From Candidatus Dormiibacterota bacterium (lineage in GTDB: Bacteria; Chloroflexota; Dormibacteria; Aeolococcales; Aeolococcaceae), in contig OY970355.1 in the NCBI GenBank assembly GCA_963718525.1, positions 2,976,001 through 3,040,000 of the forward strand: 64,000 nt of DNA. The letters are read 5' to 3'. Under the pieces are notes generated by a model. That model ran no database searches and was not told the DNA's origin. It saw nothing but the letters and a program-made list of their open reading frames with translations. Made by a program: the position numbers and the translations under genes. Of the stretch, positions 3,098 through 45,355 are shown piece by piece; position 1 is the first letter of the stretch, and each line of letters opens with the position of its first letter.

Positions 3098-3849
3098 AGG
3101 GTTGCGGTTCCTTCGCGCAGGTAGCTGCCCTCGGCCTCGTCTCTGACGACGCGCCCGTTGTCGATCGCGATGACACGGCGGCGGACGAGGTCGACGACCT
3201 CGCGGTTGTGGGTCGCCATCAGCACGGTTGTGCCGCGGTGATTGATCTGGAGCAGCAGTTGCACGATGCCCCACGACGTGTCGGGGTCGAGGTTGCCGGT
3301 CGGCTCGTCGGCGAGGAAGATGCGTGGCCGGTGCACCAGGGCTCGGGCGATCGCCACGCGCTGCTGCTCACCACCGCTCAGCTCGTCCGGGAACTTGTCG
3401 AGCTTGTCCTCGAGACCGACGATCCAGAGGACCTCCTCCACCTTCTCGCGCAGGTGGCGCTGGCCGGGCCGGGTCACCTGAAGCGCGAACGCGACGTTCT
3501 GCGCCACGGTTCGCCGGGTCAGAAGCTTGTAGTCCTGGAACACGATGCCGAACTTGCGCCGCAGCTTGGGGAGCTTGCGGTGCGACATCCGGCTCACCTC
3601 CTGGCCGTCGATGAAGATCCGCCCTGTCGAGGGAGCCTCGTCGCGAATCAGGAGACGCACCAGGGTCGACTTGCCGGCGCCGCTCGGGCCGACCAGGAAG
3701 CAGAAGTCGCCTTGATGGATCGCCAGATCAACGTCGCGCAGGGCCTCCGTACCGTTCGGGTAGACCTTGCTCACGCCGTGAAACGAGATGACGGGGCGCA
3801 GTGCGTGCTGAGGGGGGGCCGCAGATCGTTCGGCGACCGCCACGCTCAC
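3094..3849 (-). CDS. ftsE: Cell division ATP-binding protein FtsE
   Basis: Walker [35 protein letters not shown]; directly upstream of ftsX. Confidence 0.95.
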
Positions 3850-3987
3850 CAGGCTGCCCCCTGGGGCGATGTCTTCATAAGATGGTTTCTGGGATCGCTA
3901 CTGAGTCGGCGGCCAGTATAGACCGGGGTCCCGGCGGACTCCCGCGATATTTCACAGATTGGTCACTTCCGTAGTGGGATTGGCCGA

Positions 3988-5107
3988 TCAGGATGCCTTC
4001 GATTCTGGACCCTCGCGCGCCGCCCAGTGCAGGTATCCCTCGATGAACGGGTCGATGTCCCCGTCCAGCACGGCCTGGGCGTTGCCGACCTCGACCCCGG
4101 TCCGGTGGTCCTTCACCATCGTGTACGGCTGGAGCACGTAGGAGCGAATCTGGCTCCCCCACTCGGCGGCGATCAGCTCCCCCTTGAGATCGGCGACCTT
4201 CTGCGCGTGGGCGGCCTGCTGCAACGCGAGGAGGCGGGAGCGCAGCACCCGCCAGGCCACGTCGCGGTTCTGCTGCTGCGATCGCTCGTTCTGACACGTG
4301 ACCACGACGCCCGTCGGGATGTGGGTCAAGCGAACGGCCGACGAGGTCTTGTTGACGTGCTGGCCGCCCGCACCGCTTGATCGGAACACGTCCGTGCGCA
4401 CGTCGTCAGGATCGATCTCGACGGTCACGGTGTCCTCGATCTCAGGCGTGACCTCGACGAGCACGAACGACGTGTGCCTCCGATGGGCAGCGTCGAATGG
4501 GCTGATCCGGACCAGGCGGTGCACGCCGTGCTCCCCCTTGAGCAGGCCGTAGGCACGAGGGCCGGACACGCGAATGGTCGCGGATTTGATGCCTGCCTCA
4601 TCGCCCACCGACTCCTCGAGAAACTCAACCGGCATGCGGTGCTCCTCCGCCCAGAGCAGGTACATGCGCAGGAGCATCTGCGCCCAATCCTGGGAATCGG
4701 TGCCACCCGCACCCGCGTGGATCCCGATCAGCGCCACATGGTCGGTGTACGGATCGCTGAACAGCAGATCGATCTGACGGCGACCGATCTCCCTCTCGAG
4801 GGCTGTCAGCTCATTCTCGATGTCGAGAGTCATCGCATCGTCCGGCTCGGCCTCGACCATTGCGACAAGCTCGCGCGTGTCACGGGCGCGCTGCGACAGC
4901 GATTCCCACGTGCTGAGGTCGTCGCGGATGCGCGAGGCTTCCTGGTTGAGCGACGCCGCATTCTTTGGGTCGTCCCAGAGGTCCGGCGCTGCGATCTCCA
5001 GGTCGAGCTCGATCAGGCGGCGGCGTTTCCCGTCGAGGTCAAAGATGCCCCTGGAGCTCGGCAATGCGGGCGGCGACGTCGGTGGCGCGGTCTGCAAGCT
5101 CGCTCAT
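3988..5107 (-). CDS. prfB: Peptide chain release factor 2, with programmed +1 frameshift
   Basis: SPF (RISPFD) and GGQ motifs. True start ATG 5107 gives MSELADRATDVAARIAELQGHL, then CTT-TGA-C and +1 continuation DLDGKRRR. Confidence 0.96.
5038..5052 (-). promoter_or_regulatory. RF2 programmed +1 frameshift cassette
   Basis: Minus strand reads AGGGG-CAT-CTT-TGA-C: internal SD-like sequence, CUU slippery codon and UGA-C stop, matching the canonical prfB signal. Confidence 0.95.
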
Positions 5108-5132
5108 CTGCCGAGTATTCCACAATGATGTG

Positions 5133-6155
5133 ATGCAAACCGCTGCAACGGTCACGTCTGAGGCGATCGGGGAGCTGTTCCCCGACATGCCCCGCGCGTT
5201 CGACTTCGACGATGTGTCGCTCGTGCCCCGCGTGCGATCGACGCTTGCGCACCGGACCGAAGCCGTGCCGGCGCTGGAGTTCGGACCTGCGCGCCTGACG
5301 ATTCCGCTGCTCGGCTCGCCGATGCCGGACGTTTGCGGCGTCGACATGTGCATCGCGCTGGGGCAGCATGGCGCGCTCGGAATCCTGCCTCGTTTCCAGC
5401 CCGTCAGCGAGCAGGCGGAGGAGCTTCGCGAGGTCGCCGCCGCGGGCGGCGCCGTTGCTGCGGCGCTCGGTGTCACCGGCGACTATCGCGAACGGTTCAC
5501 CCGCATCATCGAATCGGGGTGCCGGATCGTCTGTCTCGATACCGCCAATGGCGCGCACGAGCAGGTGGCCCACGCGGTCCGCTGGGTGCGCGACCAGGAC
5601 GCGAGCGTGTTTCTCATTGCGGGCAATGTCGCCACGGCCGAGACCTTCCGGTGGCTCGAGGACCAGGGAGTCGACGCGATTCGCGTGGGGATCGCGGGCG
5701 GCTCGGTGTGCGAGACACGGACGGAGACCGGCGTCCACGCGCCGACGCCGTACAGCGTCTACGAGTGCGTCCAGGTGCGCCGGCGGGCGCTGATCGTCGC
5801 CGACGGCGGCGTTCGCAGCCCGGCCGACATGTGCAAGCTGCTCGCGTTCGGCGCCGACTGCGTGATGGTCGGGTCGGCGCTGGCCGGGACGTACGAGGCT
5901 CCGGGACGGGTCATCGTCGTGGACGGGAAGAAGTTCAAGATCATGCGGGGGGCGGCTTCGTTCTCGGTGCAGCAGGAGTTCGCCGGCGAGGATCCCGAAT
6001 ACATCGAGGGTGCTGAGTCGATCGTCCCGTACAAGGGCAGGGTCGCGGACGTGATTCAGCGTTACGTGGCAGGGCTTCGCAGCTCGATGTCGTACATGGA
6101 CGCGCGCACGCTGACCGAGTACCGGAGCAACGCCAGCTTCATCCGGATGCGATAG
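5133..6155 (+). CDS. IMPDH/GMP reductase family protein lacking CBS domains
   Basis: FDFDDVSLVP, SPMPDV, DTANGAH, IAGNVAT, catalytic loop GIAGGSVCETR, IVADGG, EGAESIVPYKG, GLRSSMSY. Confidence 0.85.
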   Translation: MQTAATVTSEAIGELFPDMPRAFDFDDVSLVPRVRSTLAHRTEAVPALEFGPARLTIPLLGSPMPDVCGVDMCIALGQHGALGILPRFQPVSEQAEELREVAAAGGAVAAALGVTGDYRERFTRIIESGCRIVCLDTANGAHEQVAHAVRWVRDQDASVFLIAGNVATAETFRWLEDQGVDAIRVGIAGGSVCETRTETGVHAPTPYSVYECVQVRRRALIVADGGVRSPADMCKLLAFGADCVMVGSALAGTYEAPGRVIVVDGKKFKIMRGAASFSVQQEFAGEDPEYIEGAESIVPYKGRVADVIQRYVAGLRSSMSYMDARTLTEYRSNASFIRMR

Positions 6156-6166
6156 GCGCTCCTGCG

Positions 6167-6772
6167 CTAGCCGAGTTCGGCGATGAGCTCGGCCGACGTC
6201 ATCGGTTTGGAGAACATCGGGTAGTCGTACTTGAGGGCGTTGTCGTGCTCCTCTTCTGACGTGGCAGCAACGCAATCGCTGAGCGTGATCACCTCGTAGC
6301 CGTTCTCGTAGCCACTGCGCATGGTGGATTCGACGCAACAGTTGGTGAGGAACCCGCCCAGGACGATGGTCGAGATTCCCTTGCTGCGCAGGATGAAATC
6401 GAGATTCGTGCTCGCGAAGGTGTCCAGCCCGCGCTTTCCCTCGATGACGATGTCCCCCTCCTGCGGGTCAAGCTCCTCGGTGATCGCTGCGCCCCAGGTG
6501 CCCTTCACGAAGGCGTTGCCGTCGACGACCCCTTTGAGAATGCCGTAGGGGTGCGCGCTGATCTCGTTGTAGCCCTTGGCGAACATGATCGGCGCGTGCA
6601 TGATCGTCGCGCCGGCTGACCGTGCCGCTTCGACCACGCGTTCCGTGTTGCCCAGCATGTCCGTCTTCTCCATCACGGGTTGGACGGCCCCGTGCAGGAC
6701 GCCACCCTCGGATGTGAAGTCGTTCTGGTATTCGATGAGCACAACGGCGGTCTTGGCTGGGTCGATCGACAT
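6167..6772 (-). CDS. Isochorismatase-family cysteine hydrolase
   Basis: IEYQNDF, K in EGKRG and TNCCVEST catalytic motifs; AGGAGG upstream of ATG 6772. Confidence 0.9.
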   Translation of the reverse strand: MSIDPAKTAVVLIEYQNDFTSEGGVLHGAVQPVMEKTDMLGNTERVVEAARSAGATIMHAPIMFAKGYNEISAHPYGILKGVVDGNAFVKGTWGAAITEELDPQEGDIVIEGKRGLDTFASTNLDFILRSKGISTIVLGGFLTNCCVESTMRSGYENGYEVITLSDCVAATSEEEHDNALKYDYPMFSKPMTSAELIAELG

Positions 6773-6811
6773 GCGTCCTGTCCTCCTCGGGTTCGGGTTG
6801 ATCAACGCTCG

Positions 6812-6827
6812 TTTGACCGGAGTCACA
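6812..6827. promoter_or_regulatory. Possible CRP/FNR-family binding site
   Basis: TTTGA-CCGGAG-TCACA is a 9/10 match to TGTGA-N6-TCACA, in the divergent gap upstream of the cysteine hydrolase. Confidence 0.35.
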
Positions 6828-6978
6828 TAGCGGATCTGATGGTAGTCCGGCGGTTGGTGGTGGGTTCGACGGCTCCAGATGCGCTCTTCGTCTGTCCAGA
6901 TCGACACCGAGCCTTTCGATTCCGTAACCTCACGGGCGGATCTCAGCGCTCCGGGGCGAATACGCTGATTTCACGGCC

Positions 6979-9363
6979 ATGCGGCGGCCTGTGGCCACCG
7001 TGAGGATCACACCAGGCAGTGCACCCGGCGCGCTCGTGCTGCCGGAGGGCTCAGCCTTGCGCCGACTCGCCCCGCGGATCCCGGCCAATCGACGCCGCTG
7101 GCCCCGGGGAGTGATGGTCCTCGGGCTGGTCACCGGCGTTCTCACCCTGCTGTATCTCGGGTCGACGGTCCTTCGCAGGCCCGGCACGTCCGATTACTTC
7201 TTTGATGTCTGGGTCGCCAATCTCGGGTACGCGGGGTGCGCGACCCTGTGCGCCTGGCGGGCGATCGCTCGACGTCGCGGGCGCTGGGGCTGGGGGGCTC
7301 TGGCGGTCGGCCTCTGGTTCTTCACCGCGGGATCGGTCCTCTGGACCGCCTGGGTGCAGTACTTCGTCCCTCTCCCGTACCCCTCGATCTCCGACGCCTG
7401 CTTCCTTTCGTTCTTCGTGTTCGCGTTCCCGGGCATCGGCCTCCTGGTCCGCGAGACCGTCCCACACACCTCGAAGACCATCTGGGTCGACGGTCTGATC
7501 GCCGCTCTCGGGGTCGCCGCACTCGAGTCCACCCTGGTGATCGGTCCGATCATCAACGCGAGCACTGCGGGTGGCTTCGGAACCCTCGCGACGAACATCG
7601 CGTATCCGATCGGCGACATGGTCCTCGTCACCATGGTGGTCGCGGTCTTTGCCGTTCGAGGCTGGCGGCCGGGACGCCTCTGGTGGACGCTCGGCGCCGG
7701 ACTCGTTGTGTTCGCGGCCGCAGACAGCATCTTTGTGCTGCGCGTGACCTCGAACAACTACGTCACGGGAACCCCACTGGACAGCCTGTGGCTCATCGGC
7801 GCCTTTCTCATGGCCTTCGCCGCCTGGCAGGGCATGGGGATGTCGGCTGCACGGAGCACGACGATCATTCGGCCAACCAACGTCGTTCCGGTCCTGTTCC
7901 TGCTCAGCTCGCTGGGAATCGTGGTGTATGCGGCTGGACGATCGATCTCCCTCGGCGTGGTCCTCGCCGTCGCAACGCTCCTGATCGCCATCGCCCGGTC
8001 CGCATATGCGTTTCGACAGCTGCGCGCGCTCGCCGACAGCCGGCGCGAGGCCCGAACGGACGAACTGACCGGCCTGCCCAACCGCCGGCTGTTCTTCGAG
8101 AGTCTCGCCGCATGCCTCGAACTTGGGGCCTTGGAAACGACCGCGGTGCTCATGATCGACCTTGATCGCTTCAAGGAGATCAACGACAGCCTCGGACACC
8201 ACGTCGGTGATGACGTGCTGCGCCAGCTCGGCCCGCGTCTCACCGCCGCGGTGGGCAGCACAGCGACGGTGGCACGCCTGGGAGGGGATGAATTCGGCTT
8301 GATCCTCTCCCCACTCGTCAATACCGCCGAGGCGACCGGGGCCGCGGAACGAGTTCGTGAGGCCCTGCGGCAGCCGTTTCAACTCGAGGGCATGAGCCTT
8401 CGAGTCGATGCGAGCATCGGGATCGCTCTCGCGCCCGACCACGGCACCACTCCAGAGAGCGTGCTGCAGAAGGCGGATGTCGCCATGTTCGCCGCAAAGC
8501 ACGCGCATGTCCCGTGGGAGATCTACTCGTCAGAGCATGACCAGAATGCGCTGAACCGGCTCGAGCTCATGGAAGACTTGCGCGATGCGTTGCGTCGTCA
8601 CGAGATCGTGCTGCACTACCAACCGATCCTCGACCTGACATCGGGCACCGTCACGGGCGCAGAGGCGCTGGCGCGATGGCAGCACCCCTCACGCGGACTC
8701 CTTCCACCGGGCGTGTTCCTCGGATTGATCACGGATGCAGGGCTCATGGGTCCGTTCACCATGGACGTGCTCGATCAGGCATTGGTCCAGCAGGCCACCT
8801 GGTCTGAGCGGGGATATGACCTCGGTGTCTCGGTCAACATCTCCGCGGCCAGTCTTCGTGACGAGGATCTCCCCGACAAGATTGCCGCGCGAATCGCCGC
8901 GCGCCACGTGAGACCCGCGCGCATCACGCTCGAGATCACCGAGGACTGCTTCATCGCAGACCCCGAGCAGGCGATGCTTGTCCTGGAGCGGTTGCGCGCT
9001 CTTGGCGTCGAGCTCTCGATCGACGACTTCGGTACCGGCTTCTCGTCGCTCACGTACATCCGCCGGCTGCCGGTCAGTGAGCTGAAGCTCGACCGAACCT
9101 TCCTGACCGGCGCACCGCAGGATGCTCGGGCTGTGGCGGTGATTCGCTCCACGGTCGGCCTGGCTCACGCACTCGGATTGCGCATCGTCGCCGAGGGCAT
9201 CGAAACGCTCGATGCACTCGAGCTGGTCGACCGCTTGGGCTGTGACGCAGCGCAGGGCTACCTCATCGGCCGACCCGCGCCCGCCGAGGACTTTGATGTC
9301 AGTGCCGCTGCCCAAGAGGCACGGGTTGACGCGGAGTACGTCTCCGCCACGGTCACTTCATAG
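6979..9363 (+). CDS. Membrane-bound diguanylate cyclase/phosphodiesterase (multi-TM + GGDEF + EAL)
   Basis: About 10 TM helices; DELTGLPNRR, RLGGDEF, AEALARW, DDFGTGFSSL. Start uncertain (possibly 7000 or 7111/7114). Confidence 0.92.
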   Translation: MRRPVATVRITPGSAPGALVLPEGSALRRLAPRIPANRRRWPRGVMVLGLVTGVLTLLYLGSTVLRRPGTSDYFFDVWVANLGYAGCATLCAWRAIARRRGRWGWGALAVGLWFFTAGSVLWTAWVQYFVPLPYPSISDACFLSFFVFAFPGIGLLVRETVPHTSKTIWVDGLIAALGVAALESTLVIGPIINASTAGGFGTLATNIAYPIGDMVLVTMVVAVFAVRGWRPGRLWWTLGAGLVVFAAADSIFVLRVTSNNYVTGTPLDSLWLIGAFLMAFAAWQGMGMSAARSTTIIRPTNVVPVLFLLSSLGIVVYAAGRSISLGVVLAVATLLIAIARSAYAFRQLRALADSRREARTDELTGLPNRRLFFESLAACLELGALETTAVLMIDLDRFKEINDSLGHHVGDDVLRQLGPRLTAAVGSTATVARLGGDEFGLILSPLVNTAEATGAAERVREALRQPFQLEGMSLRVDASIGIALAPDHGTTPESVLQKADVAMFAAKHAHVPWEIYSSEHDQNALNRLELMEDLRDALRRHEIVLHYQPILDLTSGTVTGAEALARWQHPSRGLLPPGVFLGLITDAGLMGPFTMDVLDQALVQQATWSERGYDLGVSVNISAASLRDEDLPDKIAARIAARHVRPARITLEITEDCFIADPEQAMLVLERLRALGVELSIDDFGTGFSSLTYIRRLPVSELKLDRTFLTGAPQDARAVAVIRSTVGLAHALGLRIVAEGIETLDALELVDRLGCDAAQGYLIGRPAPAEDFDVSAAAQEARVDAEYVSATVTS

Positions 9364-9515
9364 CCGGAGGTATTCCCCTGGCTGCCGGCCGCAATCCACG
9401 CGCGGCCGGTCGCACAGGACACGACGTTCAGCCCCGATGCGTACTGTGTGCCGATCGGATTCGGGGTCGGCTGGATCCGCCCGAGAGGTGCCTCGCCGCC
9501 CGACCCGCCTACTTA

Positions 9516-9533
9516 CCGTGGCAGAACTTGTAC
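9516..9533. repeat. att site (distal copy) containing the displaced original secA 3' end
   Basis: CCGTGGCAGAACTTGTAC; minus strand 9532-9509 reads TAC AAG TTC TGC CAC GGT AAG TAG = YKFCHGK*. Confidence 0.92.
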
Positions 9534-9583
9534 ATCCGTCAGTCGGCCCAAAACAACAGGACTAGCAGCACTTTCTCCGCCTC

Positions 9584-9603
9584 TACCCTCATCAAAACCC
9601 TCA
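9584..9603 (+). repeat. Integrase arm-type site pair (left end)
   Basis: TACCCTCA-TCAA-AACCCTCA, 12-bp period, 50 bp inside the att core; the same pair occurs at the other end. Confidence 0.8.
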
Positions 9604-10371
9604 AACCGGCCGCACCCCGCGCTCCACAATCTCGCGCAAGGCGGACACCTTCCAGACAAACCCCAAGTCAGACTCCTGATTCACACGCCCCGAGTAAACC
9701 CCAAGCAGTCGCTCGACAGAACCGGCGAACACGGCGACACCGCCGCTGCGCATTGCAACAGCGCCACCTCCGCTGTAGAAGATCACCGGCGACCCGGACT
9801 GTCCCGCCCGGGTCCGGCTGTCCACCAGATACAGCGGCAACCCATCGAATTCGACAGCAGGCTCAGTAGCAATACTCCCGCGCGACCAAATTCCTAATGA
9901 CCCGCCACCGCTCAGACCAAACGGGAACCCAATGATGAACACCCCCTCCGCAACACCTGCAGCAATTTCCGGCTCGACAGTCCAGGGATCGTGTCGGTAG
10001 AGCTCCACATCGTCCATCGAGGAGAGCGGCAACGCGACGACGTCCACGCGGCGCCCAAAATCAGGGTGCTCCCGCCACAAAGGCTGACCCGCGCCATTGT
10101 ATAGCGGGTCGGCGACCTCCCTCCACTGTCCGAGACGATCCTTCACATTGTGCATCGTCCTCAGTTCGCTCGGCACCGCCCCAGACGAGTGAAGCGGCTG
10201 ATTGGTTCGCGGATCCCTCCCACTGACAACGTGCCAGTTCGTTATCAGGTAGTTCACACCGTTCCAGCCTACTGCGAAGCCCGTTGCGCTACCAAGTACA
10301 TTGGAACCCGCTATCGCACGGATTAACAACGACGCCACCGAGGGGCGGGCGATCGCGCTGTCTGCCGTCAC
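9601..10371 (-). CDS. Trypsin-like serine protease, no signal peptide (element cargo)
   Basis: Catalytic triad motifs ITNWHVV (His), VDVVAL (Asp), GQSGSPV (Ser); IGFPFG. Confidence 0.85.
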   Translation of the reverse strand: MTADSAIARPSVASLLIRAIAGSNVLGSATGFAVGWNGVNYLITNWHVVSGRDPRTNQPLHSSGAVPSELRTMHNVKDRLGQWREVADPLYNGAGQPLWREHPDFGRRVDVVALPLSSMDDVELYRHDPWTVEPEIAAGVAEGVFIIGFPFGLSGGGSLGIWSRGSIATEPAVEFDGLPLYLVDSRTRAGQSGSPVIFYSGGGAVAMRSGGVAVFAGSVERLLGVYSGRVNQESDLGFVWKVSALREIVERGVRPV

Positions 10372-10405
10372 GCGCTAAGCCGGCTCTGAGCGAATGGGCA
10401 TGTCG

Positions 10406-11488
10406 TCACTCTGCTGCCACCACCACACGAACGGCCGGGCCGAAGCGAGCGTTGATACGGTCCACCATTGCCGCCGTCCCCGACGCGTCAGCATGCGCAT
10501 ACGTGTTGTACGTGAATCCCGGCGACGCATGGCCTAGCATCTTCGAGACTAACTGAATCGGCACCCCATCGCCGATCGCGAGGGTAGCAGCCGAATGCCT
10601 AAGATCATGAAAACGGACACGTCGGATTCCTGCCCGTTCGCACATCACGAGCCATCGTTTGTAGAACGTCGACCGCGCCATCGGTTCCGCGTCTGTCCCC
10701 GGCCAGATCAATGCCCCACGGCGAGGCGTCCGCCTAAGCGCGCTAACGCATCGATCCGACAGCTCAAGAGTCCGCCGCCCCGTCGCCGTCTTGGGCGATG
10801 TGACCACCCGACGCCCCTCCTCATCCACGGTCGCCGTGCCGGCCACGCGGAGCGTACGCCGCGCCAGATCTACATGCTCCCACCGCAGTCCAAGAAGCTC
10901 GCCCTCACGAAGGCCATGCAGCGCCGCGAGCGCGTACGCGGCCTCGAACGGATCACCTTCAGCAGCGTCAAGCAACCGCTCAACTTCAGCCCAGCTAAGC
11001 GTCGTAATCTCGTGCTTAGTGCTCCTCGGTTTATCAACGGCCTGAAGTGCGGAGCTAACCCGGTATCCACGCTTGCGCGCAGAGTTAAGAGCGATCGCCA
11101 ACGTCCGCTGAATCTGGCCCACTGTGTTGCCCGTCACCCGGCGTGCCGCGGTTGCGTGGAGCTTGTCGATGTGGTCGGGCTTCAGTACGTCAAGCCGCAC
11201 ATCACCTATTGCGGGAACGATGTGTATTCGGCCGTGCCGCTCATATGTTGCCCAGGTCGAAGCCGCCACAGTCCCTCGGATGAGATCAAGCCATCGCGCG
11301 AACCAATCGCGGACACTTGGTGACTGGGACGCGACGAACCGACGCTCCCTCTTTGCCTGGTCCGCCTTCGCCTGCGCCTCGGCCTGCGTCCGCCCGTAGA
11401 CGCTGATCTGCTGACCGGCCACCCTTACGCGGCACTCCCAGCGGTTACCTCGCCGCCGCATAGTTCCTGTCCCGCGACGCTGCCGCAT
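10406..11488 (-). CDS. int: Tyrosine recombinase/integrase with N-terminal arm-binding domain
   Basis: GLREGELLGL (R), SPKT (K), FHDLRHS (HxxR), LGHA (H), TYAH (Y) all intact. N-terminus GTGTMRRRGNRWECRV...YGRT is typical of ICE/phage integrases. ATG 11488 (ORF open to 11539). Confidence 0.95.
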   Translation of the reverse strand: MRQRRGTGTMRRRGNRWECRVRVAGQQISVYGRTQAEAQAKADQAKRERRFVASQSPSVRDWFARWLDLIRGTVAASTWATYERHGRIHIVPAIGDVRLDVLKPDHIDKLHATAARRVTGNTVGQIQRTLAIALNSARKRGYRVSSALQAVDKPRSTKHEITTLSWAEVERLLDAAEGDPFEAAYALAALHGLREGELLGLRWEHVDLARRTLRVAGTATVDEEGRRVVTSPKTATGRRTLELSDRCVSALRRTPRRGALIWPGTDAEPMARSTFYKRWLVMCERAGIRRVRFHDLRHSAATLAIGDGVPIQLVSKMLGHASPGFTYNTYAHADASGTAAMVDRINARFGPAVRVVVAAE

Positions 11489-11502
11489 GATTGCCGCCGA
11501 TC

Positions 11503-11727
11503 CTAGCGCCTCACCCGCACCCACGTCCTGGCCGGCCACGGCACCCCTTCGACTGGATCGGTCGCGTGATCTACATAGGCGTTCAGGTCGGCCAAACGAT
11601 AGCGGACGAGCCGACTGCTGATCTGAGTCTTTGGGATGCAGCCCGATCGAACCAGGCGCTTCAGCGTACTAGTGCTACACGCCAAATACAGGGCGGCCTC
11701 ATCAACCCTAAGGAGTTCCGAGCGCAC
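11503..11727 (-). CDS. xis: Excisionase-like HTH DNA-binding protein
   Basis: LLRVDEAALYLACSTSTLKRLVRSGCIP...VRYRLADLNAYV (HTH_17/MerR-like), between rep and int. Start GTG 11727 or 11751. Confidence 0.8.
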   Translation of the reverse strand: MRSELLRVDEAALYLACSTSTLKRLVRSGCIPKTQISSRLVRYRLADLNAYVDHATDPVEGVPWPARTWVRVRR

Positions 11728-11747
11728 CGCGGGGCCACCTTCTAGAT

Positions 11748-12839
11748 TCACGATGCTCCCACGCCAGCGCCATCGCTAAGGATGGCGGCCGGCTCGCCCG
11801 AGGCCCCGTCGGGAGCAAGGCCCGCGAGCAGCCGCAACTGCCCCACCGTAAGCCGACGAGCTCCGGAGTTGAGCAGCTCACGCACAAACTCAACCCCATA
11901 CCCGAGCTCGACAAGCGCGAGCGACGGTGCAACTTGCTTATAGAGCCACATTGCTATTTGCTCCAGCCCGTCCTCCTTCGACGGCAACCGCAGCATCGCG
12001 CGCTCGGCATCCCCAATGATCGACGCCCACCAATCGAGAAGCTCGGCGCGATCCCCCCGCGACCCGTCTTTCCGCTGCGTGAAGTCCACGAGGCCCCGGA
12101 TCGTTCCGAGCACGTGATTCCCTAGCCTCTCGCCCGCTGCCACGGCGCCCTGGAGAAACGAACCGGCACGCTCATCCCGGAGCTGTACCTCCCACCGTAC
12201 GCCCGCCCCTGCGACGCCCGACTCGGCAGCTTTGTCGTAGACGCGGATCAGGGCCAGCGACTTGACCGAACCAAGATATGTGCTTGCTCCAGCGGCTTCT
12301 AATGCTCCCGGACCTCGTCTCACAAACGTCTGTACTTCGCGGACACGAGTTAGATGCGTAAGTGTGAGTCGCTTACGGAAGGCGTCGGCCACTGTCCCAG
12401 GCTCTGCGCGCCGCAGCCGGTCGTCGTAGTAGCCGTCCACCCGTGTTACGTGCGCCTCCAGCCCGACCACCTGCCTAGCCAGCTCAATGCCAGCCTTTCC
12501 GCCCAGGACGTCGAACCCCGACTGCCGAATCTCCAGGTACGTCTCTTTGGCACCTGGCCGTGTCCGCGGCGACCACGCGAGGAACGCCCAATGGCCCACT
12601 TCGGCGGACGATCGATACCAGCGGTTTCCACCATCCCGGTCTTCCGGCATGGAGCCGAACGCACCACCCACAAGGGCGGCAACGTCAGGAGAGCTCATGC
12701 TCCGTATCGTTGCCTGAAGCCATCCAAGTCCTACGGTTGTCATTTCCACCCCCGTGTTACCCATCGGGGGTTCTGCTTTTGTCGGCTCTAAAGGCACAGG
12801 CCGAAGCCTAGCACAAGGAGATGCTTTTGTCCGCTCCAA
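11748..12839 (-). CDS. Rep_trans-family rolling-circle initiator / MOB_T-type relaxase
   Basis: VTRVDGYYDD, STYLGSVKS, IRVYDK (catalytic Tyr), VRWEVQLR; N-terminal PPMGNTGV overlaps the nic hairpin. Start uncertain (12839, 12764 or 12743). Confidence 0.85.
   Translation of the reverse strand: MERTKASPCARLRPVPLEPTKAEPPMGNTGVEMTTVGLGWLQATIRSMSSPDVAALVGGAFGSMPEDRDGGNRWYRSSAEVGHWAFLAWSPRTRPGAKETYLEIRQSGFDVLGGKAGIELARQVVGLEAHVTRVDGYYDDRLRRAEPGTVADAFRKRLTLTHLTRVREVQTFVRRGPGALEAAGASTYLGSVKSLALIRVYDKAAESGVAGAGVRWEVQLRDERAGSFLQGAVAAGERLGNHVLGTIRGLVDFTQRKDGSRGDRAELLDWWASIIGDAERAMLRLPSKEDGLEQIAMWLYKQVAPSLALVELGYGVEFVRELLNSGARRLTVGQLRLLAGLAPDGASGEPAAILSDGAGVGAS
12748..12771 (-). other. Putative nick site (dso/oriT) hairpin
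   Basis: Minus strand ACCCCCG-ATGGGTAACA-CGGGGGT: perfect 7-bp stem and 10-nt loop ending TAACA, the same architecture as the ICEBs1 oriT hairpin within nicK. Confidence 0.78.
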
Positions 12840-12843
12840 AGCA
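12774..12843 (+). repeat. Two imperfect ~22-bp direct repeats beside the nic hairpin
   Basis: TGCTTTTGTCGGCTCTAAAGGCA (12774-12796) and TGCTTTTGTCCGCTCCAAAGCA (12822-12843). Confidence 0.75.
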
Positions 12844-12914
12844 TCCTGGCCTGGCCTCGTCCGGGCAGCTCGCGAGACCTTTCCTCCTCGCGGATCAAAC
12901 CTTTCGTGCGATCG

Positions 12915-13295
12915 TCAGTAGGTCGCTCGTGCCGCGCTGTCGGGGCCGGTCTCGACGCGTCCTGCCAGACGCGTCGTACCCGAGCCGACCGCTCGCCGCT
13001 TCCGCGGCCGGACGACGACCTCGACCTGATCTGGATCCTCTAGAAACACTGTCAGCATGTCCTTCGCATCGAGCTCCAGGAGCAGCATCTCAATGGCTAG
13101 ACGCACGATCTTGCCCATCGGCACGTCGCGCCCCTGGGCTTTCGCCCCCTCCGCTGCGTTCTTAAGCTTCGCGTGAAACTCGGGCGAGACCCGGATCGTC
13201 AGGCGCTCCAGCCCATTAACGCTAACCGGCCGGCCGCCCTTCTTACCCGCGGCTACCTTCACCGGGTCCTTCTCGCGCTGATCCTTGTTAGGCAT
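12915..13295 (-). CDS. Ribbon-helix-helix (CopG/Arc-like) DNA-binding protein
   Basis: RLTIRVSPEFHAKLK...MGKIVRLAIE beta-alpha-alpha pattern; first gene of the rep-xis-int direction. Confidence 0.6.
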   Translation of the reverse strand: MPNKDQREKDPVKVAAGKKGGRPVSVNGLERLTIRVSPEFHAKLKNAAEGAKAQGRDVPMGKIVRLAIEMLLLELDAKDMLTVFLEDPDQVEVVVRPRKRRAVGSGTTRLAGRVETGPDSAARATY

Positions 13296-13320
13296 CTGCT
13301 TATGAGCCTACCAAAGCAGA
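13295..13320 (-). promoter_or_regulatory. Extended -10 promoter overlapped by an inverted-repeat operator
   Basis: TGgTAGGCT 9 nt before ATG 13295, flanked by the TCTGCTT...AAGCAGA inverted repeat; 17/22 identical to the repeat at 12822-12843. Confidence 0.6.
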
Positions 13321-13458
13321 GGGCTTAGGTGAGTCACGTTTTGTGATCGGTGCCTAATTTCAGCGTGACAATGCACGGGGACGCGACCCGCACTCATAGC
13401 GCCTCACTCCTGGTCTCCGCCGCCGAGCGCTTCCCCTGGGCGCATAGAATCGATTGGC

Positions 13459-13923
13459 ATGGACCGGTCCAGAGGCCCCTACCTCATCCACGCTGTGGTG
13501 TGCGAGCGAGTGCTCCAAGAGCAAGACGGCGTGTTGAGCCTAATCCGGGTCATTGATCGAATCACAGCGCTGACGATCCAATACGCTGGCCCCGGCGCCC
13601 CGGCGTTCTCTCCTCCTCCGCCACCTGCCTCGACTTCCGTGACATTCGCTCTCGGCTTCCGCTCCGGAGACTTCCAGGGGACCCTCCCGCTTCGCCTAAG
13701 AATCGACACCCCCTCGGGCTTGAAGCTACCCGAGGTTCAATTGTCGGTCCTCTTCGAAGGAGCCGATCGGGGCGCTAACGTGATCCTCCCCATGCAGTTC
13801 CCCTTGCAGGAGGAGGGACTCCACTGGTTTACCGTAGAGCTTGGCGGCGATGCGGTCACCCGAGTCCCATTGAGAGTCATCCGACAGACTGCGATCCAGA
13901 CCGTCCCCCCGCAGATTGGATAG
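13459..13923 (+). CDS. Hypothetical protein, DUF6941-like
   Basis: AVVCERVLQEQDGVLSLIRVIDRI N-terminus and beta-rich C-terminus (EEGLHWFTVELGG); TAGAAT 8 nt upstream. Confidence 0.65.
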   Translation: MDRSRGPYLIHAVVCERVLQEQDGVLSLIRVIDRITALTIQYAGPGAPAFSPPPPPASTSVTFALGFRSGDFQGTLPLRLRIDTPSGLKLPEVQLSVLFEGADRGANVILPMQFPLQEEGLHWFTVELGGDAVTRVPLRVIRQTAIQTVPPQIG

Positions 13924-13937
13924 GGAAACGCCTGCCT

Positions 13938-14216
13938 TCAGGCCGCAATCGCCACAGGCGACAGGTATTCATCGAGAACCCGTGGCGTTGCGATCACTCC
14001 CGTCCTGACCTCCCCACGATCAAACCACAGCGATTGCGCTAATAGTTCGTGCCCCGAAAGGGTCCATTTGCCCGCGCGGTCAACTAGGGAGAGGTCATCG
14101 GTTGCGTCGGCTCCTTGGTCCAAGGCCAAGCTCCGCAGCCATCCCATGGCGTCATCGACCATCGGAAAGACGGCTAGCCGGTTCCGGCTTAGCAGACCCC
14201 ACACTTCATATCTCAT
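13938..14216 (-). CDS. Small hypothetical protein (candidate antitoxin/partner)
   Basis: 92 aa; start overlaps the upstream gene by 11 nt (translational coupling). Confidence 0.6.
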   Translation of the reverse strand: MRYEVWGLLSRNRLAVFPMVDDAMGWLRSLALDQGADATDDLSLVDRAGKWTLSGHELLAQSLWFDRGEVRTGVIATPRVLDEYLSPVAIAA

Positions 14217-14550
14217 CGTCTAACGGTACCTCATGAACGGCCCAAACGCTGCGAACGGCCCCCAGGAGCTGATCTGGGGCAACCCCGTGAAGTCCAACGT
14301 GCCCGGTTTCCTCATCGTAACTGTTGATCAGATCCTCTGCGATCTCCATCCGCGCAATGAACCCACCTAGCCTAGGTAGCAATTGCGCCATTTCCATGCC
14401 TCGCCGCGCCGTGTCGAACGTGCTGACCTCCGCCCAGTGGACACGGTCTTCATCGGTCAGGGGCCTACGCGGCTTCGCACCCAGCGCCTCCTGGCTCTTC
14501 ATATCCTCTTCGATAGGCGGATTGTTCTGACAGATCCGATAGACGTGCAT
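14206..14550 (-). CDS. Small hypothetical protein, possible ADP-ribosyltransferase-fold toxin
   Basis: 114 aa with VYR ... VSTF ... GHV pattern; TATCCT 7 nt upstream of ATG. Confidence 0.6.
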   Translation of the reverse strand: MHVYRICQNNPPIEEDMKSQEALGAKPRRPLTDEDRVHWAEVSTFDTARRGMEMAQLLPRLGGFIARMEIAEDLINSYDEETGHVGLHGVAPDQLLGAVRSVWAVHEVPLDDEI

Positions 14551-14675
14551 CGTATCGAGGATATCTAACCGTCTGGATGCTGTACGCCGCCAGTCGCGCC
14601 TCCCCTCGCTCGCCCATGTCTAGCCGCACGACTCAGTCCCGGTAATCTTGGCCATGACCTCGGCGCTCGCAGCTA

Positions 14676-14695
14676 TACCCTCACAGGAACCCTCA
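14676..14695 (+). repeat. Integrase arm-type site pair (secA-proximal end)
   Basis: TACCCTCA-CAGG-AACCCTCA, 12-bp period; weaker third copy TAGCCTCG at 14701. Confidence 0.8.
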
Positions 14696-14770
14696 TTCTC
14701 TAGCCTCGGGTGCCTCTCTCTGGCCGTCTATGACACCTCCACGAATTCGGCGCCCCAAAGAGCGACTACG

Positions 14771-17716
<2,946 letters not shown>

Positions 17717-17746
17717 GGTCCATTCCATTCTGGCAGCCCTGGCCAC

Positions 17747-30131: not shown

Positions 30132-30886
30132 TCCGCGTCCTCGGTCTCCGCCTCGTTGTCCTGTGCTGGCTCCTGCTCGACGTCGGGTTCGGTGACGCGG
30201 TCCTCGCGGGTTTTTCGCTTGGTGCCACGCTCGGCGCGACCCTGTGCGGTGGGCTTGGATTCCGAGGTTGACTCGGCGCTCGCTCCGCTCGCTCCCTTGG
30301 CGCGCTTCTTGCCGTCGCCTTTGGGCGCCGGCTCAGCGGGCGTGGCTGGGCGGCTGAGCAACTCGGCACGGGCCACGACCGCGTCAGCTCTGCGCTGGGC
30401 TCGCTTGCCCACCGGTTCCGCATCCTCCGCCGCGGGCTGCGGCCCGAGCAACTCAACCGACCCGCCCGCGGACTCGACGGCGGTACGCGCGGCGGCGGAG
30501 ATCCGGTGGACCCGGAGGGTGAGCGCGTGACGCAGGCGTCCGGCCGCGAGCACCTTGACCGGCGACGAGGCCCGTGGGATCAACCCGGCTTCGGTGAGCA
30601 CGTCGGGATCCACCACCGTGTCCTTCTCGAATCGAACCAGCTTGCCGAGGTTGACCACGACGTACTCGTGCCGCCAGCGGTTGTGGAAGCCACGGAGCTT
30701 TGGCAGACGCTGCTTGAGCGGCATCTGCCCGCCTTCGAAACCGGTGGGAAGCCCCACGCTCGAGCGGGAGCCCTGGCCCTTCTGGCCGCGGCCGCTGGTC
30801 TTACCCTGGCCGGCACCCTGGCCTCGACCCACGCGTTTGCGCGGCTTGCGGCTGCCCTTCGCCGGGCTCAGCTCGTGGAGCTTCAC
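30128..30886 (-). CDS. rplO: 50S ribosomal protein L15 with ~105-aa C-terminal extension
   Basis: [29 protein letters not shown]. Confidence 0.96.
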
Positions 30887-44803: not shown

Positions 44804-45355
44804 ATGGCAACAACCAGCACCGGCAAGCCGGAGGTGAGGGCGGGTTCGCGCAAGGTCGCGGCCGTGACCAATCTCACCGAAAGGCTCTCGAGGGCAACCT
44901 CGGCCGTCGTGACCGACTACCGGGGACTGACGGTCCGCCAGCTCGAGGATCTGCGCGGCCGGCTCCGGGTCGAGGGAATCGACTACATCGTCGTCAAGAA
45001 CACCCTTGCCAGGCGTGCGGCCGTGGAAGCGGGCACCCCCGCCTTCGCGGACGTCCTCGGTGGCCCGGTCGGACTGGCTATCGGATACGGGGACCTCTCC
45101 GCGCCGGCGCGGATCCTCTTCGAGCACTTCCGGAGCACACGCACGCTGCCGCTCGTGGCGGGCCTCGCCGAGGGTCGGGTGCTGAACGGCGACGACGTGC
45201 GCACCCTCGCCGAGCTCCCTTCCAGGGACGTGCTGCTCAGCCGCCTCGCAGGAGCGCTGCTCGGACCCCTCTCCACCCTCGCGGGCGCCCTCGATTCGCC
45301 CCTGTCCACCCTCGCGGCCACCCTCGAGGCGTACCGCGACAAGCTCGCCGCCTAG
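44804..45355 (+). CDS. rplJ: 50S ribosomal protein L10
   Basis: TDYRGLTV..LR..LR, VVKNTLARRA, LAELPSRD; GGAGG RBS. Confidence 0.97.
   Translation: MATTSTGKPEVRAGSRKVAAVTNLTERLSRATSAVVTDYRGLTVRQLEDLRGRLRVEGIDYIVVKNTLARRAAVEAGTPAFADVLGGPVGLAIGYGDLSAPARILFEHFRSTRTLPLVAGLAEGRVLNGDDVRTLAELPSRDVLLSRLAGALLGPLSTLAGALDSPLSTLAATLEAYRDKLAA

What the first reader, a model, noticed from the sequence alone, without database searches (positions are those of the whole stretch)
9509..14798. Integrative element that targets the SEC-C motif of secA and rewrites the SecA C-terminus
Seen: 18-bp direct repeats at 9516-9533 and 14781-14798 (1 mismatch). The distal copy continues on the minus strand as YKFCHGK*, an orphan secA ending. 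The current gene ends YKYCHGRA* using element DNA, so the Cys/His zinc ligands are kept. Known: tyrosine integrases use tRNA/tmRNA genes and some conserved ORF ends (guaA, rpsI, rplL, prfC, dusA) and supply replacement sequence. I do not know of a described secA-targeting family. Inference: this is a new site specificity, and other SEC-C-motif genes might serve as secondary sites.
Basis: partly seen in the sequence, partly recalled or inferred. Interest (0 to 1): 0.85.

Follow-up and report, generated by a model that had tools for sequence, protein, structure and literature searches.

The report
Mobile element inserted in secA's tail
A small, apparently still mobile 5.2-kb DNA element sits inside the last codons of the essential secretion gene secA of an uncultured soil bacterium and supplies replacement codons, so the gene stays whole; the mechanism is ordinary, but I found no printed report of secA as a target.

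Summary
An 18-bp direct repeat (9516-9533 and 14781-14798, 1 mismatch) frames a 5.2-kb element. The element carries an intact tyrosine integrase, an excisionase, a Rep_trans protein, a small regulator and a few cargo genes. secA (14771-17746, minus strand) now ends YKYCHGRA*. The displaced native tail (YKFCHGK*) lies at 9509-9535.

The strongest evidence is from soil runs of one study (all four are from it). One contig joins 9525 directly to 14791, which is the empty site. Two other runs hold the occupied form. The empty site carries A at the mismatch, so the crossover lies in the 8-bp ACTTGTAC. Element DNA therefore encodes the last Cys and His zinc ligands.

A congener (G004) has a 68-80% identical integrase in a 20-kb element at the same site. 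It has the same paired TACCCT motifs in both arms. A third congener (G015) has a 4.6-kb island without an integrase at this site. The nearest paralogs (47-54% identity) all abut tRNA-Leu(CAG), which suggests a target switch.

No other SEC-C gene exists in this genome, so the secondary-site idea finds no support here. Four text searches and four reviews or surveys gave no secA att site. Earlier notes of this scan report secA-tail insertions on other DNA. Verdict: a real, new member of a known kind.

The parts
6979..9363 (+). Chromosomal flank gene (GGDEF-EAL protein), convergent with native secA
   Evidence: Pfam GGDEF and EAL. The ortholog lies directly downstream of secA in G010, G011 and G007, and beside the distal core copy in G004.
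9509..9535 (-). Orphan native secA tail, reading MYKFCHGK* with a TAG stop at 9509-9511
   Evidence: The flank GCCTACTT matches the native secA ends of G007, G011, G006, G001 and G005.
9516..9533 (.). attL core copy (chromosome on the left, element on the right)
9526..9533 (.). Inferred overlap/crossover segment ACTTGTAC (partner at 14791-14798)
   Evidence: The empty-site contig joins 9525 to 14791, with 8 letters that fit either side. The assignment as overlap region is inferred.
9585..9601 (+). Paired arm-type motif in the P' arm (ACCCT-N7-ACCCT)
   Evidence: The same pair occurs at the equivalent place in G004 and beside two tRNA-Leu paralogs.
9601..10371 (-). Cargo: trypsin-like serine protease, 256 aa
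   Evidence: Pfam Trypsin_2 5e-10; phrog_7688; PADLOC candidate PDC-S45 8.7e-15, partial.
10406..11539 (-). Tyrosine integrase, 377 aa, open frame
   Evidence: PF00589 3e-25 and PF14659; phrog_1 2e-69. R211, H311, R314, H337 and Y347 are visible in the sequence.
11503..11751 (-). Excisionase-type HTH protein, 82 aa
   Evidence: PF12728 HTH_17; TIGR01764 excise, 35.1 bits against a cut-off of 28.8.
11748..12839 (-). Rep_trans rolling-circle initiator or relaxase-like protein (the true start may lie further downstream)
   Evidence: PF02486 3.9e-21. The MobT match is weak: 26 bits against a cut-off of 600.
12772..12846 (.). Two TGCTTT-N10-AAAGCA-type palindromes upstream of rep; candidate operators or origin
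   Evidence: (D1, I5). Function is inferred.
12915..13295 (-). Small regulator candidate, 126 aa
   Evidence: Only weak matches below cut-off: HicB 18.1 bits against a cut-off of 21 and phrog_876 repressor 0.0045. Function is inferred.
13297..13322 (.). Third palindrome copy, between the divergent regulator and DUF6941 genes
13459..13923 (+). Cargo: DUF6941 protein, 154 aa
   Evidence: PF22091 1.5e-7.
13938..14550 (-). Two small ORFs (92 and 114 aa) with no family match
14677..14693 (+). Paired arm-type motif in the P arm
14771..14790 (-). Element-encoded end of secA: second base of codon 986 through C987, H988, G989, R990, A991 and the TGA stop
   Evidence: Homology to relatives' secA stops at 14779-14781.
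14781..14798 (.). attR core copy (element on the left, secA on the right)
14771..17746 (-). secA, 991 aa, intact
   Evidence: Six SecA-related Pfam families, including SEC-C at residues 972-990.

Best explanation
This is a 5.2-kb site-specific integrative element. It consists of a tyrosine integrase, an excisionase, a Rep_trans protein, a small regulator and cargo genes, and has no conjugation or virion genes. It integrated by recombination between its attP and an attB in codons 983-986 of secA.

Proposed mechanism:
- The integrase binds paired TACCCT arm-type motifs on both sides of the core, and core sites that flank an 8-bp overlap, ACTTGTAC.
- Strand exchange places the element between the body of secA and its last codons.
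- The P-arm side of attP carries a look-alike tail, (Y)CHGRA-stop. SecA therefore keeps its C-x-C...C-H zinc motif and changes only F986Y and K990R, and gains one alanine.
- The excisionase would reverse the reaction.
- The Rep_trans protein would replicate the excised circle or nick it for mobilisation by a helper.

Shown: the anatomy, the intact genes, the empty and occupied alleles, and a second related element at the same site.
Inferred: the role of the arm motifs, the exact overlap, excision as a circle, and the mode of transfer.
For: 1. Repeat and gene ends.

2. Gene content: integrase PF00589 and PF14659, excisionase HTH_17 and TIGR01764, and Rep_trans.

3. Empty site. Run X4 has a 1959-nt contig at depth 16.2 that joins 8500-9525 to 14791-15395, with 0 and 4 other letters on the two sides. 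Depth is 0 in 19 of the 20 bins between 9720 and 14599 (1.18 in the other). X3 shows the same joint weakly (side 50, depth 2.4). X1 has one 6639-nt contig across 8500-14808, and X2 has element pieces.

4. Relatives. secA homology starts at window 14779-14781 in 11 of 12 congeners. 5 of 8 readable relatives end CHGK* followed by the same flank letters as the orphan copy.

5. Second element. G004 has a 29-bp repeat 20 kb apart, the GGDEF-EAL ortholog beside the distal copy, and an integrase of 68-80% identity with an HTH_17 gene.

6. Arm motifs. ACCCT-N7-ACCCT occurs once in each arm of the window element. It also occurs once in each arm of G004, where 0.02 and 0.01 matches are expected by chance.

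7. Third case. G015 has a 4.6-kb island between the secA end and a second core copy.

8. Conserved target. The 17-mer occurs with at most 1 mismatch in 37 of 42 genus genomes.
Against: - No attP circle junction was seen. The runs are held as contigs, which drop rare forms, so excision is not shown directly.
- All four runs are from one study, and X1 may be the source of this DNA.
- Only 2 integrase-bearing elements at secA were found. These came from 42 genus genomes, 401 phylum genomes, and the metagenome and viral collections.
- The G004 integrase reads in three frames. secA of the same assembly is also frame-shifted, so I read this as sequencing error, but decay is not excluded.
- GGDEF-EAL synteny holds fully in only 3 of 9 element-free loci within the 1.5 kb held.
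- The arm motif was defined on this element before it was counted, and the window has 2 further matches elsewhere, at 30803 and 45308.
- The G015 island has no integrase and no such motif.
Confidence: 0.92

Rival explanations
1. The element is a dead remnant: a deletion derivative of a larger conjugative element like the 20-kb one in G004. It is fixed in place and no longer able to move. On this view the presence/absence difference reflects an old insertion in one lineage.
For: The element is only 5.2 kb and has no translocase or coupling protein, whereas G004's element has a TrwB/DUF87-type ATPase. No circle junction was seen. An island without an integrase at the same site in G015 shows that decay happens here.
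Against: The integrase, excisionase and Rep_trans frames are open, the catalytic residues are present, and both arms keep the paired motif. The empty-site strain has 0 differences in the 1026 nt to the left of the site. That argues for a recent gain or loss.
Confidence: 0.12
2. It is a small phage satellite or cryptic prophage that is packaged by a helper phage, not an element mobilised by conjugation.
For: The integrase, excisionase and protease match phage protein families (phrog_1, phrog_66, phrog_7688). The layout of integrase, excisionase, replication gene and regulator is also that of satellites (recalled, not tested).
Against: No capsid, terminase, packaging or helper-interference gene was found among the 8 ORFs. 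No relative was found in the viral contig collection. Rep_trans proteins are typical of small plasmids and mobilisable elements (PMC5704250, passages read).
Confidence: 0.1
3. The repeat is a chance match or a local duplication of the secA tail, and the genes between are ordinary chromosome.
For: Short imperfect repeats are common in this G+C-rich DNA: one search lists 48 direct-repeat families in 7.3 kb.
Against: 0 of 100 shuffles give two copies. An empty-site contig ends exactly at the repeat. Homology with relatives breaks at the repeat. The interval carries an integration module.
Confidence: 0.01

Closest known systems
[quoted passage not shown]
   Same: Small size, a single tyrosine integrase, a Rep_Trans-family protein and no mating machinery. 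Insertion is in the 3' end of a conserved protein gene, and one flanking repeat restores that gene.
   Different: The target is secA, which has 0 occurrences in that review and in PMC5357655. The host is an uncultured soil lineage, not Firmicutes. The Rep_trans protein does not reach the MobT model's cut-off. Mobilisation is untested.
[quoted passage not shown]
   Same: Modular layout of integration/excision, replication and regulation genes. The gene order is rep, xis, int. Closely related integrases can use different targets.
   Different: The AICEs described there sit in tRNA genes and carry an FtsK/TraB-type transfer gene. The window element has none, although G004's relative has a coupling-type ATPase. 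The host is not an actinomycete.
e14 and phage 21 at the 3' end of icd in Escherichia coli; ICESt1/ICESt3 at fda; islands at guaA, trmE and yicC (e14, phage 21 and fda are recalled; guaA, trmE and yicC are from Table 1 of PMC5704250)
   Same: The element brings a substitute 3' end, so the target gene stays functional with a few changed residues.
   Different: The integrase lineages and target genes differ. Here the replaced codons include two metal ligands of a zinc motif.
tRNA-Leu(CAG)-adjacent integrases of the same genus (loci L002, L007, L008, L009, L011)
   Same: Identity to the window integrase is 47-54%. They form one clade with it at 100/100 support. Two tandem arm-type motifs lie between the integrase gene and the core, and 2 of 5 loci have the very same TACCCT pair.
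   Different: Their core lies in a tRNA gene, whose 3' end faces the integrase gene. In the secA elements, cargo genes separate the integrase gene from the arm motifs.

Membership tests
Tyrosine-recombinase site-specific integrases with arm-type sites (lambda type) | Catalytic domain with the R..H-x-x-R..H/W..Y residues | tested here: met
   PF00589 at 3.2e-25. R211, H311, R314, H337 and Y347 were read in the translation. Assigning them as the catalytic residues rests on recalled motif knowledge.
Tyrosine-recombinase site-specific integrases with arm-type sites (lambda type) | Element flanked by direct repeats of a short core shared with the target | tested here: met
   The 18-bp repeat matches at 17 of 18 positions. 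The empty site ends exactly in it.
Tyrosine-recombinase site-specific integrases with arm-type sites (lambda type) | Arm-type binding sites distant from the core, on both arms | tested here: inconclusive
   Paired ACCCT-N7-ACCCT motifs lie about 50 nt (P') and about 85 nt (P) from the core. They are conserved in place in G004 and beside 2 of 5 tRNA-Leu paralogs. Binding is not shown, and no N-terminal arm-binding Pfam domain was detected.
Tyrosine-recombinase site-specific integrases with arm-type sites (lambda type) | Reversible integration and excision | tested here: inconclusive
   Both empty and occupied alleles exist in near-identical strains. No circular junction was seen, and contigs cannot show rare forms.
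Integrative and mobilisable elements (IMEs) | Own integration/excision module and no complete conjugation machinery | tested here: met
   The integrase and excisionase are present. There was no coupling protein, translocase or secretion gene among 8 ORFs.
Integrative and mobilisable elements (IMEs) | Relaxase or oriT that allows use of a helper's mating pore | tested here: inconclusive
   Rep_trans PF02486 scores 3.9e-21, but MobT NF041493 scores only 26 bits against a cut-off of 600. No oriT was identified.
Integrative and mobilisable elements (IMEs) | Transfer shown to depend on a helper element | not testable with these tools
   This needs mating experiments, and the organism is uncultured.
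[quoted passage not shown] | FtsK/TraB-type DNA translocase for double-stranded transfer | tested here: not met
   None was found in the window element. G004's 20-kb relative has a TrwB/DUF87-type ATPase.
[quoted passage not shown] | Integration in the 3' end of a tRNA gene of an actinomycete | tested here: not met
   The target is secA. The one named record that carries the related integrase is titled Candidatus Dormibacteraeota.
Prophage | Virion structural and packaging genes | tested here: not met
   PHROGs matched only the integrase, the excisionase, one family of unknown function, and weak replication and repressor families.

The most novel reading that the evidence does not exclude
The DNA that encodes the SEC-C zinc motif at the end of secA is a recurrent landing site, taken up independently by unrelated integrases in distant phyla. 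This Dormibacteraeota clade reached it by switching its core specificity from tRNA-Leu(CAG) to a protein-coding sequence while keeping its arm-site recognition. If so, the clade would be a natural before-and-after pair for studying how a tyrosine integrase acquires a new core target.
Probability: 0.45. Interest if true: 0.62.

Novelty: new member of a known kind. Interest (0 to 1): 0.45.

Why it matters
The result adds secA to the list of housekeeping genes whose 3' ends serve as attachment sites. It does so in an uncultured soil phylum for which I know of no described mobile elements (recalled, not searched).

It is one of the better-documented cases that sequence alone can give. Both the empty and the occupied alleles are seen in nature, a second related element sits at the same site, and the arm motifs are conserved.

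The integrase clade has two sister lineages at tRNA-Leu(CAG) with the same arm motif. That makes it a compact system for asking how core specificity changes.

In practice, an integrase whose 18-bp target is nearly invariant across a genus (37 of 42 genomes) could serve as a genetic tool for these bacteria.

The SecA changes (F986Y, K990R, one added alanine) lie within the natural variation of the genus, so no effect on secretion is expected.

Tried and rejected
- Wider search for close integrase relatives. Genome contigs gave only the G004 record. Metagenome contigs gave 2 hits at 28% identity. Viral contigs gave none. A sample of 401 phylum genomes gave only 48-51% paralogs.

- Degenerate SEC-C-tail pattern over 401 phylum genomes. 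52 genomes matched, and only G000 has two copies on one contig. G062, G087 and G121 have two copies on different contigs, which I did not examine.

- Secondary sites. The genome has a single SEC-C motif. The nearest core look-alikes, at 2 and 3 mismatches, are not in a SEC-C context.

- Second end of the tRNA-Leu paralog's element in G000. No repeat of the tRNA was found: up to 3 mismatches within 120 kb either side, and no exact match of 12 nt or more in the 80 kb upstream.

- I saw no obvious similarity between the tRNA-Leu core region and the secA core (by eye).

- The promoter and terminator scan of the element gave nothing above the shuffles.

- In the alignment, G003 was given in the wrong orientation and is unusable.

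- Literature. Mageeney et al. 2020 (NAR) is not held, and the TIGER/Islander data file is external. One search was set too loosely and gave nothing useful. The secA mentions in three papers were irrelevant.

- No attP junction appeared. The runs are contigs only, so this says nothing either way.
Full report
**1. The observation**

CCGTGGCAGAACTTGTAC lies at 9516-9533 and CCGTGGCAGTACTTGTAC at 14781-14798. With up to 3 mismatches these are the only two matches in the window. The chance expectation is 0.02, and 0 of 100 shuffles reached two. In the whole 3.34-Mb genome the next-best sites have 2 and 3 mismatches.

On the minus strand, 14771..17746 is a 991-aa ORF with all SecA domains and a SEC-C motif at residues 972-990. 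It ends ...[16 protein letters not shown]. The minus strand at 9509-9535 reads MYKFCHGK*.

**2. What lies between the repeats**

All genes are on the minus strand except one:
- Trypsin-like protease, 9601-10371. It also gives a partial match to the PADLOC candidate PDC-S45.
- Tyrosine integrase, 10406-11539 (PF00589 3e-25, PF14659, phrog_1 2e-69). R211, H311, R314, H337 and Y347 are present.
- Excisionase-type HTH protein, 11503-11751 (HTH_17; TIGR01764 above its cut-off).
- Rep_trans protein, 11748-12839 (PF02486 4e-21). Its MobT score is far below the cut-off.
- A 126-aa protein with only weak regulator-like matches, 12915-13295.
- DUF6941 protein, 13459-13923, on the plus strand.
- Two small ORFs with no family match.

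No conjugation or virion genes are present. Three TGCTTT-N10-AAAGCA-type palindromes flank the 126-aa gene. I take them as candidate operators or an origin, which is inference only.

**3. Proof of insertion**

laid Logan contigs of four soil runs of one study on 8500-15800.
- X1, which may be the source sample, has one 6639-nt contig running from 8500 into the element and out to 14808.
- X2 has pieces along the element.
- X4 has a 1959-nt contig at depth 16.2 that joins 8500-9525 directly to 14791-15395. It has 0 other letters on the left part and 4 on the right. Depth is 0 in 19 of the 20 bins between 9720 and 14599, and 1.18 in the other.
- X3 shows the same joint weakly (side 50, depth 2.4) and also holds element pieces.

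A repeat of 8 to 18 letters is, as far as I recall, shorter than the assembler's word length, so I do not think it can create such a join by itself. The empty site is therefore real.

The join keeps A at 9525 and not T at 14790, with 8 letters that fit either side. It follows that:
- native SecA of this strain ends YKFCHGK*;
- the exchange took place inside ACTTGTAC (9526-9533 and 14791-14798);
- everything from the second base of codon 986 to the stop, (Y)CHGRA*, is element DNA, including the Cys987 and His988 ligands.

Both F and Y occur natively at this position among species of the genus. Tails ending in K* or R* both occur among relatives. The changes therefore look neutral.

**4. Relatives**

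The secA 3' end matched 16 of 21 genomes. In 11 of 12 congeners the match begins at query base 80-82, which is window 14779-14781. The exception is G004, which starts at base 70 and has its own element.

In the alignment, 8 of 9 relatives were readable, because G003 was given in the wrong orientation. Five end ...CHGK* with the same following letters as the orphan copy. Three end ...CHGR*.

The GGDEF-EAL gene to the left of the orphan copy lies directly downstream of secA in G010, G011 and G007. It is partly within reach in G008. It is not within the 1.5 kb held for the other five loci. Synteny is therefore only partly conserved in the genus.

**5. Other elements at the same site**

Across 42 genus genomes, 37 hold the 17-mer with at most 1 mismatch. 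Three have two copies on one contig: G000, G004 and G015. G009 has a second hit with 1 mismatch, on a 1.8-kb contig with no secA similarity.

*G004.* A 29-bp repeat frames 20 kb. The GGDEF-EAL ortholog sits beside the distal copy, and secA begins at the proximal one. The element carries an integrase of 68-80% identity, an HTH_17 gene, a TrwB/DUF87-type ATPase, an M48 peptidase, an MmeI-type enzyme and other cargo. Its integrase reads in three frames. secA of the same assembly is also frame-shifted, as are those of G011 and G006, so I read this as sequencing error.

*G015.* 4.6 kb lies between the secA end and a second core copy with 1 mismatch. By eye from the translations, not by a family scan, it holds a transporter and chromate-resistance-like ORFs. 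It has no match to the window's integrase or other element proteins and no arm motif.

**6. attP architecture**

ACCCT-N7-ACCCT occurs at 9585-9601, about 50 nt from the core, and at 14677-14693, about 85 nt from it. It occurs twice more in the window, at 30803 and 45308; I did not follow those up.

G004 has exactly one match in each arm, at equivalent distances. The expected numbers there are 0.02 and 0.01. The motif was defined on the window, so the G004 hits are the independent test.

The same pair lies between the integrase stop and tRNA-Leu(CAG) in 2 of 5 paralog loci (L002, L011). The other three loci have a different tandem pair at the same place.

**7. Integrase relationships**

Within the genus, only G004 exceeds 55% identity. 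The other hits at E of 1e-85 or better are 42-55% identical.

All 5 inspected loci at 47-54% identity abut tRNA-Leu(CAG). Four loci at 37-40% abut tRNA-Met. Others abut tRNA-SeC or tRNA-Lys, and one abuts no tRNA.

I built a tree of 12 rows, using the N-terminal open frame alone for G004. It puts the two secA integrases (100/99) in a 100/100 clade with the two tRNA-Leu groups, as an unresolved three-way split. A switch from tRNA-Leu to secA is the simplest reading, but the tree has no proper root.

**8. Scope and limits**

No close relative turned up in the 401-genome phylum sample, the metagenome collection or the viral collection. No further same-contig duplicate of the SEC-C tail was found in the phylum sample.

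The one named record that carries the related integrase is titled a Candidatus Dormibacteraeota MAG.

Genomes flagged as unpublished are G027 and G036, G032, and G230, G328 and G202. They enter only the tallies of those surveys, and no specific claim rests on them.

**9. Literature**

Four full-text searches found no secA attachment site: secA with attB and integrase; 'end of secA' with integrat-; secA with genomic island, integration site and tyrosine recombinase; and secA with integrative and mobilizable.

'secA' has 0 occurrences in the IME review PMC5704250, the streptococcal IME survey PMC5357655, the AICE survey PMC3218068 and the AICE review PMC2440964. I saw passages only of these four.

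PMC5704250 states that IMEs with one tyrosine recombinase use the 3' ends of tRNA and housekeeping genes without disrupting them. It lists Rep_Trans-bearing IMEs at rpsI and rpmE. PMC12424338 (whole text) reports about 1.75 million mapped islands, 43% of them in coding sequences. That table and Mageeney et al. 2020 could not be read, so secA cases may be on record there.

**10. Earlier notes of this scan**

Earlier notes of this scan report secA-tail insertions in gut Bacilli, Patescibacteria and other uncultured gut bacteria. I did not test them. They suggest the site is hit repeatedly on other DNA.

**11. Verdict**

This is a real integrative element, probably still mobile, of a known mechanistic kind. 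Its target is new to the literature I could search. It is well documented here, with a neat hint of a change in target specificity. Interest is moderate.

Noticed in passing
G000:C1:2827649-2828887 (locus L002): A 47%-identical paralogous integrase lies beside tRNA-Leu(CAG) in the same genome, with the same paired TACCCT arm motif. No second repeat of the tRNA was found: up to 3 mismatches within 120 kb either side, and no exact match of 12 nt or more in the 80 kb upstream. Its element boundary is therefore unknown.
   Followed up: partly
window 30803-30819 and 45308-45324: Two further exact matches to ACCCT-N7-ACCCT lie outside the element. They may be chance; the stated expectation of 0.02 looks low to me.
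   Followed up: no
L030 (G015:C152) about 3760-8360: A 4.6-kb island without an integrase lies at the secA end of a congener. By eye it holds a transporter and chromate-resistance-like ORFs (two ChrB-like and one ChrA-like). The GGDEF-EAL neighbour is reduced to a 33-aa match.
   Followed up: partly
L028:4790-19001 and L029:1-5741 (G004:C5): The 20-kb secA element of G004 carries an MmeI-type restriction-modification enzyme, a T5orf172/MUG113 protein, a helicase fragment, a UDG-superfamily protein, DUF4209 and an M48 peptidase. This looks like defence-type cargo.
   Followed up: partly
L029, L022, L023 (secA of G004, G011, G006): The essential secA gene reads in two or three frames in these assemblies. 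That points to indel errors, so frameshifts in their other genes should not be read as decay.
   Followed up: no
window 12772-12846 and 13297-13322: Three copies of a 22-nt unit with TGCTTT...AAAGCA palindromic ends flank the 126-aa gene. They are candidate operators or a replication origin.
   Followed up: partly
G000:C1:1044113-1045267 (locus L003): A 33%-identical integrase frame with one in-frame TGA lies beside tRNA-Lys(TTT).
   Followed up: no
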